From positions 1-15,261 of the IMG/VR virus record IMGVR_UViG_2545824644_000012: DNA of 15,261 nt; one strand, 5' to 3'. A program made the position numbers and the translations under genes. Source of the DNA: a virus (lineage: Duplodnaviria > Heunggongvirae > Uroviricota > Caudoviricetes). Below the pieces are notes generated by a model, which was not told the DNA's origin, made no database searches, and saw only the letters and a program-made list of their open reading frames with translations. Of the stretch, positions 3,989 through 11,749 are shown one piece after another (the stretch's first letter is position 1; every line of letters begins with the position of its first letter).

Positions 3989-4177
3989 TTATCCAGCCGG
4001 TGTTTCGTTATTCAGGTACAGCGATACTTTTTTTACCGGGAGGCATTCACCGGGGATTTTTTGTTCGTCCCTTACCTGAATGCAGGATGACTTACTGTCA
4101 TAAATTCCGGTAATCACATTCTGCGGCTCACCCGTTATAAGAAAAACGGTCATCACCAGTGCAAATGCTGAAGTCAT
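3989..4177 (-). CDS. ydfD: YdfD-like small lysis protein (Qin ydfD homologue)
   Basis: 62-aa ORF with hydrophobic N-terminus (MTSAFALVMTVFLITGEP) and EQKIPG.C.PV.KV pattern recalled from Qin YdfD; GGAG 7 nt upstream; ATG overlaps the dicB stop (ATGA). Confidence 0.6.
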   Translation of the reverse strand: MTSAFALVMTVFLITGEPQNVITGIYDSKSSCIQVRDEQKIPGECLPVKKVSLYLNNETPAG

Positions 4178-4362
4178 TGACGTTCTCCGAAAATACCAAG
4201 TTTAATAAGGGCAATTCGGGAAAGAATGGAATTATCATTGAGCAGATAAGGCTCATATTTCCGCATATTAATGGCATCCTCAGTAAACGCTTTATTACTG
4301 AGCAGAACACCAATATCAAAACAACCTTCAGACGTATTAACGTTTGGTAATAACGTTTCCAT
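4174..4362 (-). CDS. dicB: Cell-division inhibitor DicB homologue
   Basis: 62-aa ORF; N-terminus METLLPNVNTSEGCFDIGV..FTEDAIN.RK matches recalled K-12 DicB (MKTLLPNVNTSEGCFEIGV...FTEDAINKRK); GAGGA 7 nt upstream of the ATG; same length as DicB. Confidence 0.75.
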   Translation of the reverse strand: METLLPNVNTSEGCFDIGVLLSNKAFTEDAINMRKYEPYLLNDNSILSRIALIKLGIFGERQ

Positions 4363-4379
4363 TATCGCGTCCTCAACAA

Positions 4380-4535
4380 TGAATTTTGTGATGCAGTGCC
4401 TGGTGCCTCCAGGTGACGTTAACCAGTTAACAATTAACGCCGGATTGTTAGTTGATGTCTGTTACGCAAGTAAAAGACCGCTTGTTTTAACTGTTCCGCG
4501 TGCGCATAGCCGCATTCACCGCATCACAAAATTCA
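4380..4535. repeat. Near-perfect 19-bp inverted repeat pair (tGAATTTTGTGATGC(a/g)GTG) separated by about 118 bp
   Basis: Plus strand 4380-4398 tgaattttgtgatgcagtg; reverse complement of 4517-4535 is tgaattttgtgatgcggtg (18/19 identical). Lies between the DicF-like element and the dicB ribosome-binding site. Confidence 0.8.
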
Positions 4536-4539
4536 CTTT

Positions 4540-4579
4540 AAAAAGGGCGGATATCCATTTCCGCCGAATCACCAGAAAA
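4540..4579 (-). ncRNA. dicF: DicF-like small RNA (shortened variant) with intrinsic-terminator 3' end
   Basis: Minus strand reads UUUCUGGUGAUUCGGCGGAAAUGGAUAUCCGCCCUUUUU. The 5' UUUCUGGUGA and the GGCGG...CCGCCC stem plus U-run resemble recalled DicF (UUUCUGGUGACGUUUGGCGG...GCCGCCC). Position immediately upstream of dicB matches Qin gene order. Boundaries approximate. Confidence 0.45.
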
Positions 4580-4941: not shown

Positions 4942-5094
4942 TTAGTCAGAGTTTCTTGCTAACCAGCGATGCGCGCCAGCTTCGGTTTTAAACGTTTTAC
5001 TTTTGGTATACGTCATCGCGGTAAACGTGCCGTCCTGGTTGGGGAAGACGCCGCACACCAGAGATTCATTGTTGCCAAGATTGAGCATATCCAT
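4942..5094 (-). CDS. DUF1391-like small protein (YdfA/YdaF family)
   Basis: 50-aa ORF below the track length cutoff: MDMLNLGNNESLVCGVFPNQDGTFTAMTYTKSKTFKTEAGAHRWLARNSD; GAGG 4 nt before the ATG; first gene downstream of the leftward promoter, as ydfA is in the Qin dicB operon. Family assignment from memory. Confidence 0.55.
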   Translation of the reverse strand: MDMLNLGNNESLVCGVFPNQDGTFTAMTYTKSKTFKTEAGAHRWLARNSD

Positions 5095-5272
5095 GTTGAC
5101 CTCATTTACCCTTAACGCCGGGTCGCGGAACTAAAAACCTGCTGCGCTGTTATACAAAGTGTTCCCGCCGTCATGTTCATACGCCTCGGGCTGGCTACTT
5201 AACCCCTGACCACTGCCTGGTAACTCGAAGTATTGCCCTGCGTTCTGTGGGGCGGGGTGGGTTGATGAATAT

Positions 5273-5310
5273 AATCTACAAGTAAAAACTGTTTGATGTC
5301 AACAATAAAT
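5273..5310 (-). promoter_or_regulatory. Leftward sigma70-type promoter (-35 TTGACA, 18-bp spacer, -10 TAGATT) overlapped by a repressor operator
   Basis: Minus strand: TTGACA is the reverse complement of 5297-5302 and TAGATT of 5273-5278. Plus strand 5283-5310 contains aaaaaCTGTT-N7-AACAAtaaat, the same half-site pattern as the palindrome in the repressor/cro intergenic region. Confidence 0.5.
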
Positions 5311-5366
5311 AACTGTCATTTTGGACGAAGAAAACTCCCTCATCAGTGGGAGCAAAAGCGGTGGGC

Positions 5367-5654
5367 TTAAAGATTAGCGGGGAATTGTCGACGGGCGTGA
5401 ACCACGTTTACAATTTCAATACCTGAAGTTGTCACCCGGTACAAAATTATGTAATTGGGGTGAGCCACAATCTCGCGCAAACCTGGCACTCTGTCGCTTG
5501 GCGGATATAAATACGGATGTTCGGATAACGGCAGGACGCAAGCTCTTAAGCGTTGCCATAAGCGTTCTGCCGCATCTATGTCGAAACGGGCAATATAACT
5601 AGTTATATCATCCAGATCGGTATCTGCGCTTTCAAGCCATAACACGGGTAACAT
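5367..5654 (-). CDS. parE2: ParE/RelE-family type II toxin (ParE2-like)
   Basis: 95-aa ORF starting directly after the antitoxin stop (TAA-ATG); RelE/ParE-like size and sequence; partner of a PaaA2-like antitoxin. Confidence 0.8.
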   Translation of the reverse strand: MLPVLWLESADTDLDDITSYIARFDIDAAERLWQRLRACVLPLSEHPYLYPPSDRVPGLREIVAHPNYIILYRVTTSGIEIVNVVHARRQFPANL

Positions 5655-5846
5655 TTACTGCTCTCTCCGTTCCTTGCGAATTTTGGCAAAGCGTTCTGCC
5701 ATTCTGCGCTCAACTTCATCATGTGGAATAGCAGGACGTGGATCAGCAAGGCTTGCGGCTACTTTTGCGCGTAACCATTCGTTATAACTGTTTTCTTGCT
5801 CAACGGTTTCAAATTCAGAAACCATTGGTGAAAGGGCTGTATTCAT
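5655..5846 (-). CDS. paaA2: PaaA2-like antitoxin (63 aa)
   Basis: Using the internal Met gives MNTALSPMVSEFETVEQENSYNEWLRAKVAASLADPRPAIPHDEVERRMAERFAKIRKERREQ, near-identical to the recalled E. coli O157 PaaA2. AGGAGG 6 nt upstream of this ATG; the longer track ORF (to 5909) would overlap the repressor gene. Confidence 0.85.
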   Translation of the reverse strand: MNTALSPMVSEFETVEQENSYNEWLRAKVAASLADPRPAIPHDEVERRMAERFAKIRKERREQ

Positions 5847-5875
5847 GACATACCTCCTCTTACAGGTGGTAGAGA

Positions 5876-6277
5876 TTACGCTCGGTGCCCCTTTTGGGCT
5901 GCGATCCACCGAGCAACAGTTTCTTCCATTGACTTTTTCTTATTTTTTATTTCCTGAAGCATTTTTTCTTGGTCTTCATCGGGAAATGCACTAAAAGCTT
6001 GGAGCAATTCACGTTGGCGAGGGCCAATTTTCATCGTGTCAGGAGTAAAAATTTGCTCTCCCTCTTCTGGAGGTAATAAAAACCAATGTAGTGGATGCCC
6101 TGTAACCTCGACCAACTTATCTAAGCTGGAGGCTTTAGGTGTGGCTTTTCCACTGACCCATTGCTGAACAGTTTGCTGTGTCACACCGACTCTACGAGCA
6201 AGTTCAGCTTGGCTCCATCCTGTTTCTTTGAGGAGCCTGCTAATTCTGTACATAGATACTTCTAGGGCCTTCATCAT
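5876..6277 (-). CDS. paaR2: HTH (XRE-family) repressor, DicA/PaaR2-like; probable prophage repressor
   Basis: 133-aa ORF with helix-turn-helix (SQAELARRVGVTQQTVQQW); divergent from a Cro-like gene across an operator-containing intergenic region; immediately upstream of the PaaA2/ParE2 pair on the same strand. No Shine-Dalgarno upstream, so possibly leaderless like lambda cI. Confidence 0.7.
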   Translation of the reverse strand: MMKALEVSMYRISRLLKETGWSQAELARRVGVTQQTVQQWVSGKATPKASSLDKLVEVTGHPLHWFLLPPEEGEQIFTPDTMKIGPRQRELLQAFSAFPDEDQEKMLQEIKNKKKSMEETVARWIAAQKGHRA

Positions 6278-6288
6278 TATTCGATTTT

Positions 6289-6347
6289 ACAGGTAAATAC
6301 TGTTAAAAGCACCACAATAAAAAACTGTTGATCATGAACAGTTTTTT
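6289..6347. promoter_or_regulatory. Operator region between divergent repressor and cro-like genes
   Basis: 6319-6347 aaaaaaCTGTTgatcatgAACAGtttttt has perfect 11-bp inverted arms around a 7-bp spacer; a second ACAG-N7-CTGT element lies at 6289-6303. Divergent promoters were not resolved confidently. Confidence 0.5.
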
Positions 6348-6385
6348 ATTGTAGCCTTTATCTATGAACTTCAGAGGAGGGCAAC

Positions 6386-6646
6386 ATGCTCAATAGCACC
6401 CGTGAAAAAATTAAGCAGAAATACACACAGGCTGAAATAGGACGCTATATGGGAGTAACCCAACAAACTGTTTGGCAATGGTTTAGCTTGGGTATTCCTC
6501 CCAAACAGGTAATCCCTTTATGCCAACTAATGCAGTGGGGGGTTACTCCTCACGAACTCCGACCTGATATTTATCCTAACCCAACAGACGGCTTGCCTGC
6601 TGAGTTTCAGACTAGCACACAGCCAGCGACGGGAGTTGATTCATGA
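6386..6646 (+). CDS. Cro-like HTH regulator (YdaS family)
   Basis: 86-aa ORF; GAGGAGGG Shine-Dalgarno; motif GVTQQTVWQW..GIPP...ELRPD typical of YdaS/Cro-like proteins; divergent from the repressor. Confidence 0.7.
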   Translation: MLNSTREKIKQKYTQAEIGRYMGVTQQTVWQWFSLGIPPKQVIPLCQLMQWGVTPHELRPDIYPNPTDGLPAEFQTSTQPATGVDS

Positions 6647-7068
6647 AAATCAAGCATGAGCACATCCGCATGGCGATGAATGCCTGGGCATATCCTGACG
6701 GTGAGAAAGTTCCCGCAGCTGAAATAGCCCGGACTTATTTCGAACTGGGGATGACGTTCCCGGAACTGTACGACGACACTCATCCTGAGGCCCTGGCTCG
6801 TAATACCCAGAAAATTTTCCGTTGGCTGGATAAAGACACCCATGATGCTGTTGAAAAAATTCAGGCTCTGTTACCGGCGATCGAAAAGGCGATGCCGCCT
6901 TTGCTGGTGGCCCGTATGCGCAGTCACAGTTCTGAGTACTACCGGGAGATTGTCGAACGGCGGGATCGGCTGGTGAAGGATGTCGACGATTTTGTTGCGT
7001 CAGCGGTCGTTTTGTATGACCAGATAAATCGCGGCGGCCCGGCAGGGAATGCTGTGGTGATGCACTAA
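6643..7068 (+). CDS. YdaT-family protein (CII-like regulator / putative toxin)
   Basis: 141-aa ORF beginning MKIKHEHI, as recalled for Rac YdaT; ATG overlaps the cro-like stop (ATGA), matching the ydaS-ydaT arrangement. Confidence 0.6.
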   Translation: MKIKHEHIRMAMNAWAYPDGEKVPAAEIARTYFELGMTFPELYDDTHPEALARNTQKIFRWLDKDTHDAVEKIQALLPAIEKAMPPLLVARMRSHSSEYYREIVERRDRLVKDVDDFVASAVVLYDQINRGGPAGNAVVMH

Positions 7069-11418: not shown

Positions 11419-11593
11419 TGCAGCGGGTGCTTGAGGCTATCTGCCTCGGGCATGAACACCAACGGCAGATAGAGAAAAGCCCCAGTTAACATTACGCGTC
11501 CTGCAAGACGCTTAACATTAATCTGAGGCTCAATCCATGCTGAACACATGTAGGTTAGCCTCTTACGTGCCGAAAGGCAAGGAGAAGCAGGCT

Positions 11594-11749
11594 ATGAAGC
11601 AGCAAAAGGCGATGTTAATCGCCCTGATCGTCATCTGTTTAACCGTCATAGTGACGGCACTGGTAACGAGGAAAGACCTCTGCGAGGTGCGAATCCGAAC
11701 CGGTCAGACGGAGGTCGCTGTCTTCGTAGACTACGAATCTGAGAAGTAA
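11594..11749 (+). CDS. hok: Hok/Gef-family type I toxin (HokD/RelF-like)
   Basis: 51-aa ORF MKQQKAMLIALIVICLTVIVTALVTRKDLCEVRIRTGQTEVAVFVDYESEK with the Hok signature; AAGGAG upstream. The in-frame upstream ATG at 11537 (track ORF) would add a 19-aa extension. Confidence 0.85.
   Translation: MKQQKAMLIALIVICLTVIVTALVTRKDLCEVRIRTGQTEVAVFVDYESEK

What the first reader, a model, noticed from the sequence alone, without database searches (positions are those of the whole stretch)
5283..6347. Same operator motif (A5-CTGTT-N7-AACAG-T5) at the repressor/cro switch and at the leftward dicB-operon promoter
6319-6347 is a perfect 11-bp-arm palindrome. 5283-5310 carries the same half-sites with the same 7-bp spacing and overlaps the -35 of a strong leftward promoter (TTGACA-18-TAGATT). 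This implies a single repressor controls both the immunity switch and the DicF/dicB/ydfD/exo/xis/int operon, as DicA does in Qin.
Basis: seen in the sequence. Interest (0 to 1): 0.5.

Follow-up and report, generated by a model that had tools for sequence, protein, structure and literature searches.

The report
Prophage repressor operators at OR and PL
The repeated motif is real, but it is the junction of two neighbouring 15-bp repressor-binding sites in an ordinary lambda-style prophage switch: three sites at the repressor/cro switch and two at the leftward promoter that drives the dicB cell-division-inhibitor genes.

Summary
The palindrome at 6319-6347 is real and is longer than reported: 16-bp arms, 6314-6352. 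The second site (5283-5310) matches only partly. Its left arm and 7-bp spacing fit, the right core is AACAA rather than AACAG, and there is no T5 flank. The promoter TTGACA-18-TAGATT is confirmed.

The repeating unit is more likely a 15-bp operator, ACAR-N7-YTGT. The window has five and no others: OL1 5278, OL2 5302, OR3 6289, OR2 6314, OR1 6338. Starts are 24-25 bp apart.

In 60+ related loci (repressor identity down to 47%):
- the 3+2 layout and the internal N7 never change;

The 133-aa repressor's best solved-structure match is the phage 434 repressor, and the base-contacting glutamines are conserved. 434 binds ACAA-N6-TTGT.

The one-repressor, two-promoter inference is well supported, but only indirectly. 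Qin (DicA) and CP-933P (PaaR2) are heteroimmune analogues, not orthologues.

This is a new immunity specificity within a known design, and of low to moderate interest.

The parts
5273..5278 (-). PL -10 hexamer TAGATT
   Evidence: Promoter scan. It shares one base with OL1.
5278..5292 (.). OL1, 15-bp operator ACAAGTAAAAACTGT, filling the PL spacer between -35 and -10
   Evidence: Same position relative to the promoter as OR1 at PR.
5297..5302 (-). PL -35 hexamer TTGACA
   Evidence: It lies in the 9-bp gap between OL1 and OL2.
5302..5316 (.). OL2, 15-bp operator ACAATAAATAACTGT, just upstream of the PL -35
5334..5353 (-). Terminator-like hairpin followed by TTTCTT, at the end of the repressor-paaA-parE operon
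5367..5654 (-). ParE2-like toxin gene (95 aa)
   Evidence: Pfam ParE_toxin. Matches PDB 5CW7 ParE2 at E 2e-58. 92% identical to the CP-933P protein.
5655..5846 (-). PaaA2-like antitoxin gene (63 aa)
   Evidence: Pfam PaaA2. Matches PDB 3ZBE at E 1.5e-33. 90% identical to the CP-933P protein.
5876..6277 (-). 133-aa repressor: a 434-like HTH N-terminal domain plus a DicA/PaaR-type C-terminal domain, with no S24 peptidase domain
6284..6289 (-). Putative PRM -10 TAAAAT, 6 nt before the repressor ATG, implying a leaderless mRNA
   Evidence: Read from sequence. The block ATTTTACAGG is kept in 65 loci. Leaderless paaR2 was shown experimentally only in the CP-933P analogue.
6289..6303 (.). OR3, ACAGGTAAATACTGT, over the PRM -10/spacer
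6314..6328 (.). OR2, ACAATAAAAAACTGT, between the PRM -35 position and the PR -35
6328..6333 (+). Putative PR -35 TTGATC
   Evidence: Read from sequence. Same geometry as PL, with an 18-bp spacer.
6338..6352 (.). OR1, ACAGTTTTTTATTGT, the exact reverse complement of OR2, filling the PR spacer
6352..6357 (+). Putative PR -10 TAGCCT
   Evidence: Read from sequence. Inferred from the mirror-image match to PL (I1). Below the promoter scan's threshold.
6386..6646 (+). Cro-like YdaS-family gene (86 aa), with recognition helix GVTQQTVWQW
   Evidence: Pfam YdaS.
4942..5094 (-). ydfA (DUF1391), the first gene downstream of PL
4174..4362 (-). dicB, in the leftward gene string downstream of PL
   Evidence: Pfam DicB at E 1e-35.

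Best explanation
The window holds the immunity region of a lambdoid E. coli prophage inserted next to ompW. It works like the lambda/434 switch.

Mechanism.
- The 133-aa repressor binds as dimers to five 15-bp operators of the form ACAR-N7-YTGT.
- OR1 fills the PR spacer and OR2 lies just upstream of the PR -35. Occupying them shuts off the cro-like ydaS gene and ydaT.
- OR2 also sits next to the weak -35 of the leaderless repressor promoter, a position that could activate it.
- OR3 overlaps that promoter's -10/spacer, a position that allows autorepression.
- OL1 and OL2 flank the -35 of PL in a mirror image of the PR arrangement. Occupying them shuts off the leftward transcript (ydfA, DicF remnant, dicB and beyond).
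- The Cro-like protein carries almost the same recognition helix and probably binds the same units.

The palindrome is OR2 + PR -35 + OR1.

Shown here: the units, their spacing, their conservation, the promoter geometry, the protein homologies and the mosaic ancestry.

Inferred: actual binding, order of occupancy, activation at OR2, and OL-OR looping through the PaaR2-like C-terminal domain.
For: 1. Five ACAR-N7-YTGT units and no others occur in 15 kb, with starts 24, 25 and 24 bp apart. None of 2000 simulations had even one such neighbouring pair.
2. In 60+ loci spanning repressor identities of 92, 81, 71 and 47%, there are always three units at OR (spacing 25, 24) and two at OL. In the 47% (Arsenophonus-type) loci the strict pattern finds only the outer two OR units, 49 bp apart; a middle unit with a degenerate left half (AAAAGAATTTATTGT) was read by eye. 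There are almost no stray hits, and the internal N7 never changes. The start-to-start spacing at OL is 23, 24 or 25 bp.
3. Among 20 close OR variants the three units are invariant apart from one central base of OR3. Substitutions pile up at 6333-6337, between the units.
4. In the diverged lineages the central 7 bp change while ACAR/YTGT stay, for example GTATCCC and TTAACTC.
5. The best PDB match of the repressor is the phage 434 repressor DNA-binding domain, aligning TQQTVQQWVSGK with [12 protein letters not shown]. 434 operators are 14 bp with conserved outer 4+4 bases and non-contacted central bases (PMC1636474).
6. The recognition helix GVTQQTVQQW is invariant in all lineages that carry these units. 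Operators differ where the recognition element differs: the helix is altered in a homologous domain in Stx-phage CI (SAQSVQY; no units) and DicA (SHVSVSQ; TGTTAG-type operators), and the N-terminal domain is unrelated in PaaR2 (GTTTAGTG-type).
8. PL and PR share the geometry operator / -35 / 8 bp / operator / -10, with 18-bp spacers (I1, 32).
9. OL co-segregates with the repressor's N-terminal domain, OR and cro across a toxin-antitoxin cassette of different ancestry.
10. In analogous systems, PaaR2 and YdaS footprint OR and both repress PL933P about 100-fold (PMC8630535). Deleting dicA raises dicBp activity 22-fold (PMC10448788).
Against: - There are no binding or expression data for this repressor type. 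The experiments cited are on heteroimmune analogues whose DNA-binding domains and operators differ.
- The units were found with a pattern, so invariance of positions 1-3 and 13-15 is partly circular.
- The register argument rests on about five independent lineages.
- The operator is 15 bp, not the 14 bp of 434, so the dimer geometry cannot be identical.
- The PR -10 (TAGCCT) and the PRM -35 are weak, and no transcription start is mapped here.
- Only two OL units are found, whereas CP-933P and Qin are described as having three.
- In the close lineage the OR2/OR1 and OL pairs are exact inverted copies. My model treats that as incidental.
Confidence: 0.8

Rival explanations
1. One repressor dimer binds A5-CTGTT-N7-AACAG-T5, once at the switch and once over the PL -35.
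For: The element at 6319-6347 is a perfect palindrome. The cores recur at 5289-5305 with one mismatch and the same N7. The N7 is also kept at OR in the 81% and 71% lineages. A variable centre would be expected for a non-contacted spacer.
Against: - At OL in relatives the same register gives N6, N7 or N8.
- OR3 is conserved but has no partner in this register.
- The outer ACAA and TTGT are conserved in every lineage, yet this model gives them no role.
- Base 6337 of 'AACAG' is T or C in the close variants.
- The A5/T5 'flanks' are not kept in diverged lineages.
- Half-site centres are 13 bp apart, and the ACAG orientation is the reverse of the 434 precedent (PMC1636474).
Confidence: 0.08
2. The OL/OR similarity reflects only common ancestry of two promoters (a PL/PR duplication). 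The repressor does not act at PL, which would then be constitutive or controlled some other way.
For: The PL and PR regions are mirror copies over 44 nt at 70% complementarity, promoter hexamers included (I1).
Against: - In diverged lineages the ACAR/YTGT tetranucleotides at OL are kept while the unit centres and flanks drift.
- The OL type follows the repressor type across a mosaic boundary.
- An unrepressed PL would express dicB, a cell-division inhibitor. In both analogous systems PL is repressed.
Confidence: 0.05
3. The 39-bp palindrome acts as a structure, a cruciform or hairpin/terminator, rather than as protein-binding sites.
For: As single-stranded DNA it folds at -13.6 kcal/mol, z-score -7.
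Against: - It lies between divergent promoters and upstream of both likely transcription starts, so it should not be transcribed.
- The stem is A/T-rich and was not flagged as a terminator.
- Arm complementarity decays in the 71% and 47% lineages (OR1 matches inverted OR2 at only 12 of 15 in the 71% lineage), while the 15-bp units persist.
Confidence: 0.03

Closest known systems
paaR-paaA-parE immunity region of a second E. coli O157:H7 prophage (locus L002; probably the CP-933M homologue mentioned in PMC8630535)
   Same: Repressor 91% identical and cro-like protein 72-80% identical. The three OR units are identical in sequence. OL has two units of the same form. Gene order is the same.
   Different: Its antitoxin and toxin are only 65-66% identical to those in the window. 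Its OL unit spacing is 25 rather than 24 bp. I found no experimental work on its operators in the held literature. The assignment to CP-933M is inferred, not verified.
CP-933P immunity region: PaaR2 / YdaS / YdaT with PRM, PR, PL and PRE (Jurenas et al. 2021, PMC8630535)
   Same: The architecture is the same: repressor-paaA2-parE2 operon, divergent cro-like gene, ydaT, and a PL just beyond parE2. PaaA2, ParE2 and YdaT are 90-93% identical. The repressor's C-terminal 46 aa are about 61% identical. The exact YdaT site is present. In CP-933P, PL is repressed by both regulators, paaR2 is leaderless, and PaaR2 forms octamers.
   Different: It is heteroimmune. The PaaR2 N-terminal domain is unrelated (34% overall). 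Its YdaS shows no detectable similarity. Its operators are GTTTAGTG-type. Those experiments therefore support the design by analogy only, not this operator sequence.
Qin DicA / DicC / dicBp of E. coli K-12
   Same: A short, non-cleavable repressor with the same two-domain layout (26% identity over the full length). A PL-like promoter upstream of ydfA...dicB is repressed by it, and operators lie at both promoters (PMC10448788).
   Different: The recognition helix differs. The operators differ (TGTTAG..CTAACA type). DicC has no similarity to the cro-like protein here. Qin has no toxin-antitoxin cassette between repressor and promoter. Qin has an intact DicF.
Phage 434 repressor and Cro with their 14-bp operators
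   Same: 434 repressor is the best solved-structure match of the DNA-binding domain, and the Gln-Gln...Gln recognition residues are conserved. Operators have conserved outer ACAA/TTGT and a central part that tolerates change, in three-site OR arrays (PMC1636474). Repressor and Cro share a QQ recognition helix (for the window's pair; for 434 Cro this is recalled, not tested here).
   Different: The operator is 15 bp (N7), not 14 bp (N6). The fourth base is A or G. The C-terminal domain is DicA/PaaR-type, not a RecA-cleavable S24 peptidase domain. Overall similarity is confined to about 55 residues.
Lambda CI / Cro with OR1-3 and OL1-3
   Same: Three-part OR with centres about 24 bp apart. One operator fills the PR spacer, one abuts the PRM -35, and one overlaps PRM. 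The repressor mRNA is leaderless. A second operator cluster lies at PL about 1 kb away.
   Different: The operator sequence is unrelated. Only two OL units are present. There is no S24 cleavage domain. A toxin-antitoxin cassette occupies the rexAB position.

Membership tests
Lambdoid CI/Cro immunity switch | Divergent repressor and cro-like HTH genes separated by a short intergenic region | tested here: met
   Repressor at 5876-6277 (-) and YdaS-family gene at 6386-6646 (+), with a 108-bp gap between them.
Lambdoid CI/Cro immunity switch | Three similar operators at OR, about 24 bp apart, overlapping PR and PRM | tested here: met
   Units start at 6289, 6314 and 6338. The layout is conserved in 60+ loci. 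Promoter positions were read from sequence, not mapped.
Lambdoid CI/Cro immunity switch | The same operators overlap a leftward early promoter (PL) | tested here: met
   Units at 5278 and 5302 flank the -35 of TTGACA-18-TAGATT. There are two units, not three.
Lambdoid CI/Cro immunity switch | The repressor binds the operators and represses PR and PL | not testable with these tools
   Needs EMSA or footprinting and reporter fusions. Shown only for the analogues PaaR2 (PMC8630535) and DicA (PMC10448788).
Lambdoid CI/Cro immunity switch | RecA-cleavable S24 (LexA-like) C-terminal domain | tested here: not met
   Pfam finds only HTH families in the 133-aa protein. The C-terminal part resembles DicA and PaaR2. 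It therefore belongs to the non-cleavable subclass.
paaR-paaA-parE three-component module (O157:H7 type) | PaaA-family antitoxin and ParE toxin downstream of a regulator gene on the same strand | tested here: met
   Pfam PaaA2 at E 2e-20 and ParE_toxin at E 9e-17. PDB 3ZBE and 5CW7 match at E 1e-33 and 2e-58.
paaR-paaA-parE three-component module (O157:H7 type) | Regulator orthologous to PaaR2 | tested here: not met
   34% identity overall. Only the C-terminal ~46 aa are alike, and the N-terminal DNA-binding domain is unrelated. The regulator is 91% identical to that of a second O157 locus instead.
Qin DicA regulon | DicA-type repressor: short, HTH plus an ELLxxFxxLPE-type C-terminal domain | tested here: met
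   26% identity across residues 11-129, E 7e-12. Aligned.
Qin DicA regulon | DicA operator sequence (TGTTAG..CTAACA type) at both promoters | tested here: not met
   The Qin intergenic sequences share no motif with the window's units, and the recognition helices differ.
Qin DicA regulon | DicC as the cro partner and an intact DicF in the leftward operon | tested here: not met
   DicC shows no similarity to the window's cro-like protein. DicF is not found by Rfam even at E<=1. The alignment shows a 19-nt net deletion of the DicF core.
Phage 434-type repressor/operator recognition | 434-like HTH with Gln28, Gln29 and Gln33 equivalents | tested here: met
   The PDB alignment pairs TQQTVQQ with TQQSIEQ. 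The residue roles come from established 434 structural work and were not tested here.
Phage 434-type repressor/operator recognition | 14-bp operator ACAA-N6-TTGT | tested here: not met
   The units are 15 bp, ACAR-N7-YTGT, in every lineage. It works like 434 but is not a 434-immunity member.

The most novel reading that the evidence does not exclude
The mirror-symmetric pair itself (OR2 / -35 / OR1) may be a functional super-operator with its two-fold axis on the promoter's -35, read by a symmetric repressor tetramer or octamer. It is a perfect 39-bp palindrome here, and the two OL units are exact inverted copies of each other in most close relatives (OL spacing 24).
Probability: 0.07. Interest if true: 0.45.

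Novelty: new member of a known kind. Interest (0 to 1): 0.25.

Why it matters
- It gives a concrete, testable operator definition (ACAR-N7-YTGT, five sites) for an immunity type present in about 500 of 5426 complete E. coli genomes, including a second prophage of O157:H7. I found no published operator for this type.
- It shows how dicB, a cell-division inhibitor, is probably kept silent in these lysogens.
- The authors of the CP-933P study could not decide which of two overlapping repeat registers is the real binding site. Comparative indel analysis, as used here, is one way to settle that kind of question.
- The mosaic is a natural domain swap. The paaA2-parE2 cassette and the repressor's C-terminal domain resemble those of CP-933P, but they are combined with a different DNA-binding domain, cro, OL and OR. 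This could be used to test whether OL-OR looping depends on the shared C-terminal domain.
- None of this changes the known logic of lambdoid switches.

Tried and rejected
- **Wrong orthologue at first.** I initially took the O157:H7 locus L002 to be CP-933P and treated the PaaR2 experiments as orthologous evidence. The paper's N-terminal sequence (MQKKE) and its primers showed this was wrong. I fetched the real CP-933P locus and found it heteroimmune. The correction is in notebook entry 2.
- **Searches for more diverged relatives gave little.** The genome-contig scan found one locus, from Arsenophonus. An alignment-based viral scan found nothing new. The metagenome scan returned the same identity classes. 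Independent lineages therefore number about five.
- **DicF search was negative.** Rfam found no DicF at the gathering threshold or at E<=1. The only hit was a sub-threshold STnc100 match at 4330-4547.
- **Key paper not held.** Hallez et al. 2010 (the paaR1/paaR2 description) is not in the library, so the name 'PaaR1' for this repressor type is unverified.
- **No third OL unit.** Nothing of the right form lies 24 bp to either side of OL1/OL2.
- **Mirror symmetry is not conserved.** Mirror symmetry of adjacent units does not hold in the window's own OL or in the 81% and 47% lineages.
- **Information profile is partly circular.** The profile of the units is fixed by construction at the pattern positions, so I used it only for the flanks and the centre.
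Full report
**1. What the window is**

The window is 99.9% identical to a prophage next to ompW in E. coli strain OkiPb01678.

On the minus strand, reading leftward from the switch, it carries:
- a 133-aa HTH repressor (5876-6277);
- a PaaA2-family antitoxin (5655-5846);
- a ParE toxin (5367-5654);
- a terminator-like hairpin (5334-5353);
- ydfA/DUF1391 (4942-5094);
- dicB (4174-4362) and a DUF1482 gene;
- an 823-aa exonuclease, xis and int.

On the plus strand it carries a YdaS-family cro-like gene (6386-6646), a YdaT-family gene (6643-7068) and replication genes. This is a lambdoid immunity region with a toxin-antitoxin cassette where lambda has rexAB.

**2. Checking the observation**

The palindrome is real. 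6319-6347 reads AAAAAACTGTT-GATCATG-AACAGTTTTTT. It extends to perfect 16-bp arms, 6314-6352 (folded; the repeat finder lists it as 19-nt arms at 95%, I2).

The second site is only partly the same. 5283-5310 reads TAAAAACTGTT-TGATGTC-AACAATAAAT.
- The left arm and the 7-bp spacing match.
- The right core is AACAA.
- There is no T5 flank.

The promoter is confirmed: TTGACA (5302..5297), 18 bp, TAGATT (5278..5273), 10 of 12 matches to consensus.

It gives 2 hits against 0.56 expected, and 23 of 200 shuffles do as well.

**3. A different register fits better**

The repeat finder reported a 15-16-nt direct-repeat family, ACAAnTAAAnACTGT, in both regions (D1 and D2). Written as ACAR-N7-YTGT, it has exactly five matches in 15 kb:

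| Unit | Start | Sequence |
|---|---|---|
| OL1 | 5278 | ACAAGTAAAAACTGT |
| OL2 | 5302 | ACAATAAATAACTGT |
| OR3 | 6289 | ACAGGTAAATACTGT |
| OR2 | 6314 | ACAATAAAAAACTGT |
| OR1 | 6338 | ACAGTTTTTTATTGT |

Starts are 24, 25 and 24 bp apart, the spacing of lambdoid operator arrays. In 2000 dinucleotide-matched simulations, none had even one neighbouring pair 22-27 bp apart. The window has three.

OR1 is the exact reverse complement of OR2. That is why OR2 + spacer + OR1 reads as a perfect palindrome.

**4. Comparative test of the two registers**

I collected about 65 loci that encode relatives of the repressor, at 92, 81, 71 and 47% identity, from viral, metagenome and genome collections plus a second O157:H7 prophage.

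- Every locus with enough flanking DNA has three units at OR (starts 25 and 24 bp apart) and two at OL, with almost no stray matches in 4-5 kb. In the 47% (Arsenophonus-type) loci the strict pattern finds only the two outer OR units, 49 bp apart; between them lies a unit with a degenerate left half, read by eye.
- The spacing inside a unit is always N7.
- The start-to-start spacing of the two OL units is 23, 24 or 25 bp, depending on lineage.
- Among 20 near-identical OR variants, the three units are invariant apart from one central base of OR3. Substitutions concentrate at 6333-6337, between the PR -35 and OR1.
- In the 71% lineage the centres of the units are quite different (GTATCCC, TTAACTC) but ACAR/YTGT persist.
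- OR3, and the outer ACAA/TTGT of every unit, are conserved.

**5. The protein fits the 15-bp register**

- The repressor's best match among solved structures is the phage 434 repressor DNA-binding domain. The alignment pairs QAELARRVGVTQQTVQQWVSGK with [22 protein letters not shown].
- From established 434 structural work, Gln28, Gln29 and Gln33 read the outer ACAA of 14-bp operators, and the central bases are not contacted. PMC1636474 summarises the 14-bp sites, the conserved outer 4+4 bases and the indirect readout at the centre.
- All three glutamine positions are conserved here.
- The cro-like protein has nearly the same helix, GVTQQTVWQW.
- Inside a unit the half-site centres are 11 bp apart, about one helical turn, with ACAR outermost as in 434.

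The recognition helix also tracks the operator type.

| Protein | DNA-binding domain / recognition helix | Operators |
|---|---|---|
| Window repressor and all relatives that carry the units | GVTQQTVQQW, invariant | ACAR-N7-YTGT |
| Stx-phage CI (47-51% identical N-terminal scaffold) | SAQSVQY | no such units |
| DicA of Qin | SHVSVSQ | TGTTAG..CTAACA type |
| PaaR2 of CP-933P | unrelated N-terminal domain | GTTTAGTG type |

**6. Promoter geometry**

PL and PR are mirror images (I1). Each has the layout operator / -35 / 8 bp / operator / -10, with an 18-bp spacer.
- PL: OL2, TTGACA, OL1, TAGATT.
- PR: OR2, TTGATC, OR1, TAGCCT (read from sequence).

A -10-like TAAAAT (6289..6284) lies 6 nt before the repressor's ATG, and there is no Shine-Dalgarno sequence. 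This predicts a leaderless mRNA. OR3 would cover that promoter's -10/spacer, and OR2 would abut its weak -35.

These positions are inferred. Leaderless paaR2, activation of PRM at low repressor levels, and repression of PL were shown only in the CP-933P analogue (section 8 of PMC8630535, quoted).

**7. Relation to known systems, and a correction**

I first assumed the O157:H7 hit L002 was CP-933P. It is not. PaaR2 starts MQKKE.

The true CP-933P locus (L068) compares with the window as follows:
- its repressor shares only the C-terminal ~46 aa (about 61% there, 34% overall);
- its YdaS has no detectable similarity;
- its operators are unrelated.

The window is a mosaic:
- OL/PL and the repressor N-terminal domain + OR + cro follow L002, at about 66-94% identity across 50-bp windows (mostly above 80%);
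- the toxin-antitoxin cassette and ydaT follow CP-933P, at 86-94%.

OL keeps company with the DNA-binding domain even though DNA of different ancestry lies between them. This is independent evidence that the OL units belong to this repressor.

L002 is probably the CP-933M homologue mentioned in PMC8630535. I could not verify that name.

Qin is a valid design analogue. DicA represses dicBp 22-fold, and operators lie at both promoters (PMC10448788). But it is a distant one: 26% identity, different operators, and an unrelated DicC.

**8. The leftward transcription unit**

- ydfA and dicB lie downstream of PL on the same strand.
- The DicF locus is a remnant. It keeps the first 10 nt of DicF and the terminator hairpin, with a 19-nt net deletion of the core. 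Rfam does not detect DicF.
- That hairpin (4565..4546) is the only terminator-like site on the minus strand between PL and int.
- Whether PL transcripts reach dicB, exo, xis and int is therefore not shown.

**9. Verdict**

- The regulatory inference, one repressor acting at two promoters, is well supported by comparative and homology evidence and by two experimentally studied analogues. No binding data exist for this immunity type.
- The motif as defined is mis-registered. The operator is most likely the 15-bp 434-like unit ACAR-N7-YTGT, three at OR and two at OL.
- This is the textbook lambdoid design with a previously undescribed specificity: a new member of a known kind, of low to moderate interest.

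Noticed in passing
window 6333-6337: This 5-bp patch between the PR -35 and OR1 is hypervariable. It shows 13 different pentamers among 20 otherwise near-identical OR variants, mostly combinations of transitions. The other inter-operator spacer (6304-6313) barely varies. The cause is unknown: it could be relaxed constraint, a mutational hotspot, or tuning of PR.
   Followed up: partly
window 4546-4578 (-): The DicF locus is a truncated remnant. The first 10 nt of K-12 DicF and the GGCGG...CCGCC-T5 terminator are kept, but there is a 19-nt net deletion of the core. Rfam DicF is not detected even at E<=1. A sub-threshold STnc100 match covers 4330-4547.
   Followed up: partly
window 6636-6653: An exact match to the published YdaT (CII-like) binding site, TTGATT-N6-AATCAA, reads TTGATTCATGAAAATCAA and spans the ydaS stop and the ydaT start (motif from PMC9986795).
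   Followed up: partly
window 5243-6630: The immunity region is a mosaic. OL/PL and the repressor N-terminal domain + OR + cro resemble a second O157:H7 prophage (L002). The paaA2-parE2 cassette (5477-5825) and ydaT resemble CP-933P. The same toxin-antitoxin cassette therefore sits in two heteroimmune regions. This bears on the proposal in PMC8630535 that the cassette guards against immunity-region recombination.
   Followed up: partly
window 11425-11599 (+): A full-length sok antitoxin RNA (Rfam RF01794, 113 bits) lies next to a Hok/Gef-family gene.
   Followed up: no
window 6330-6333: A GATC (Dam) site overlaps the putative PR -35 (TTGATC). It is present in only some variants; others have TTGATT.
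   Followed up: no
L042, L043 and L045-L047: The OL-to-OR distance is 658 bp in L042/L043 and 1317 bp in the 71% lineage, against about 1010 bp elsewhere. The content between repressor and PL therefore varies, and part of the toxin-antitoxin cassette is probably missing in L042/L043.
   Followed up: no
L001 8387-8660 (strain OkiPb01678): In the 99.9% identical RefSeq genome the cro-like ydaS gene is annotated as frameshifted. In the window the 86-aa ORF is intact.
   Followed up: no
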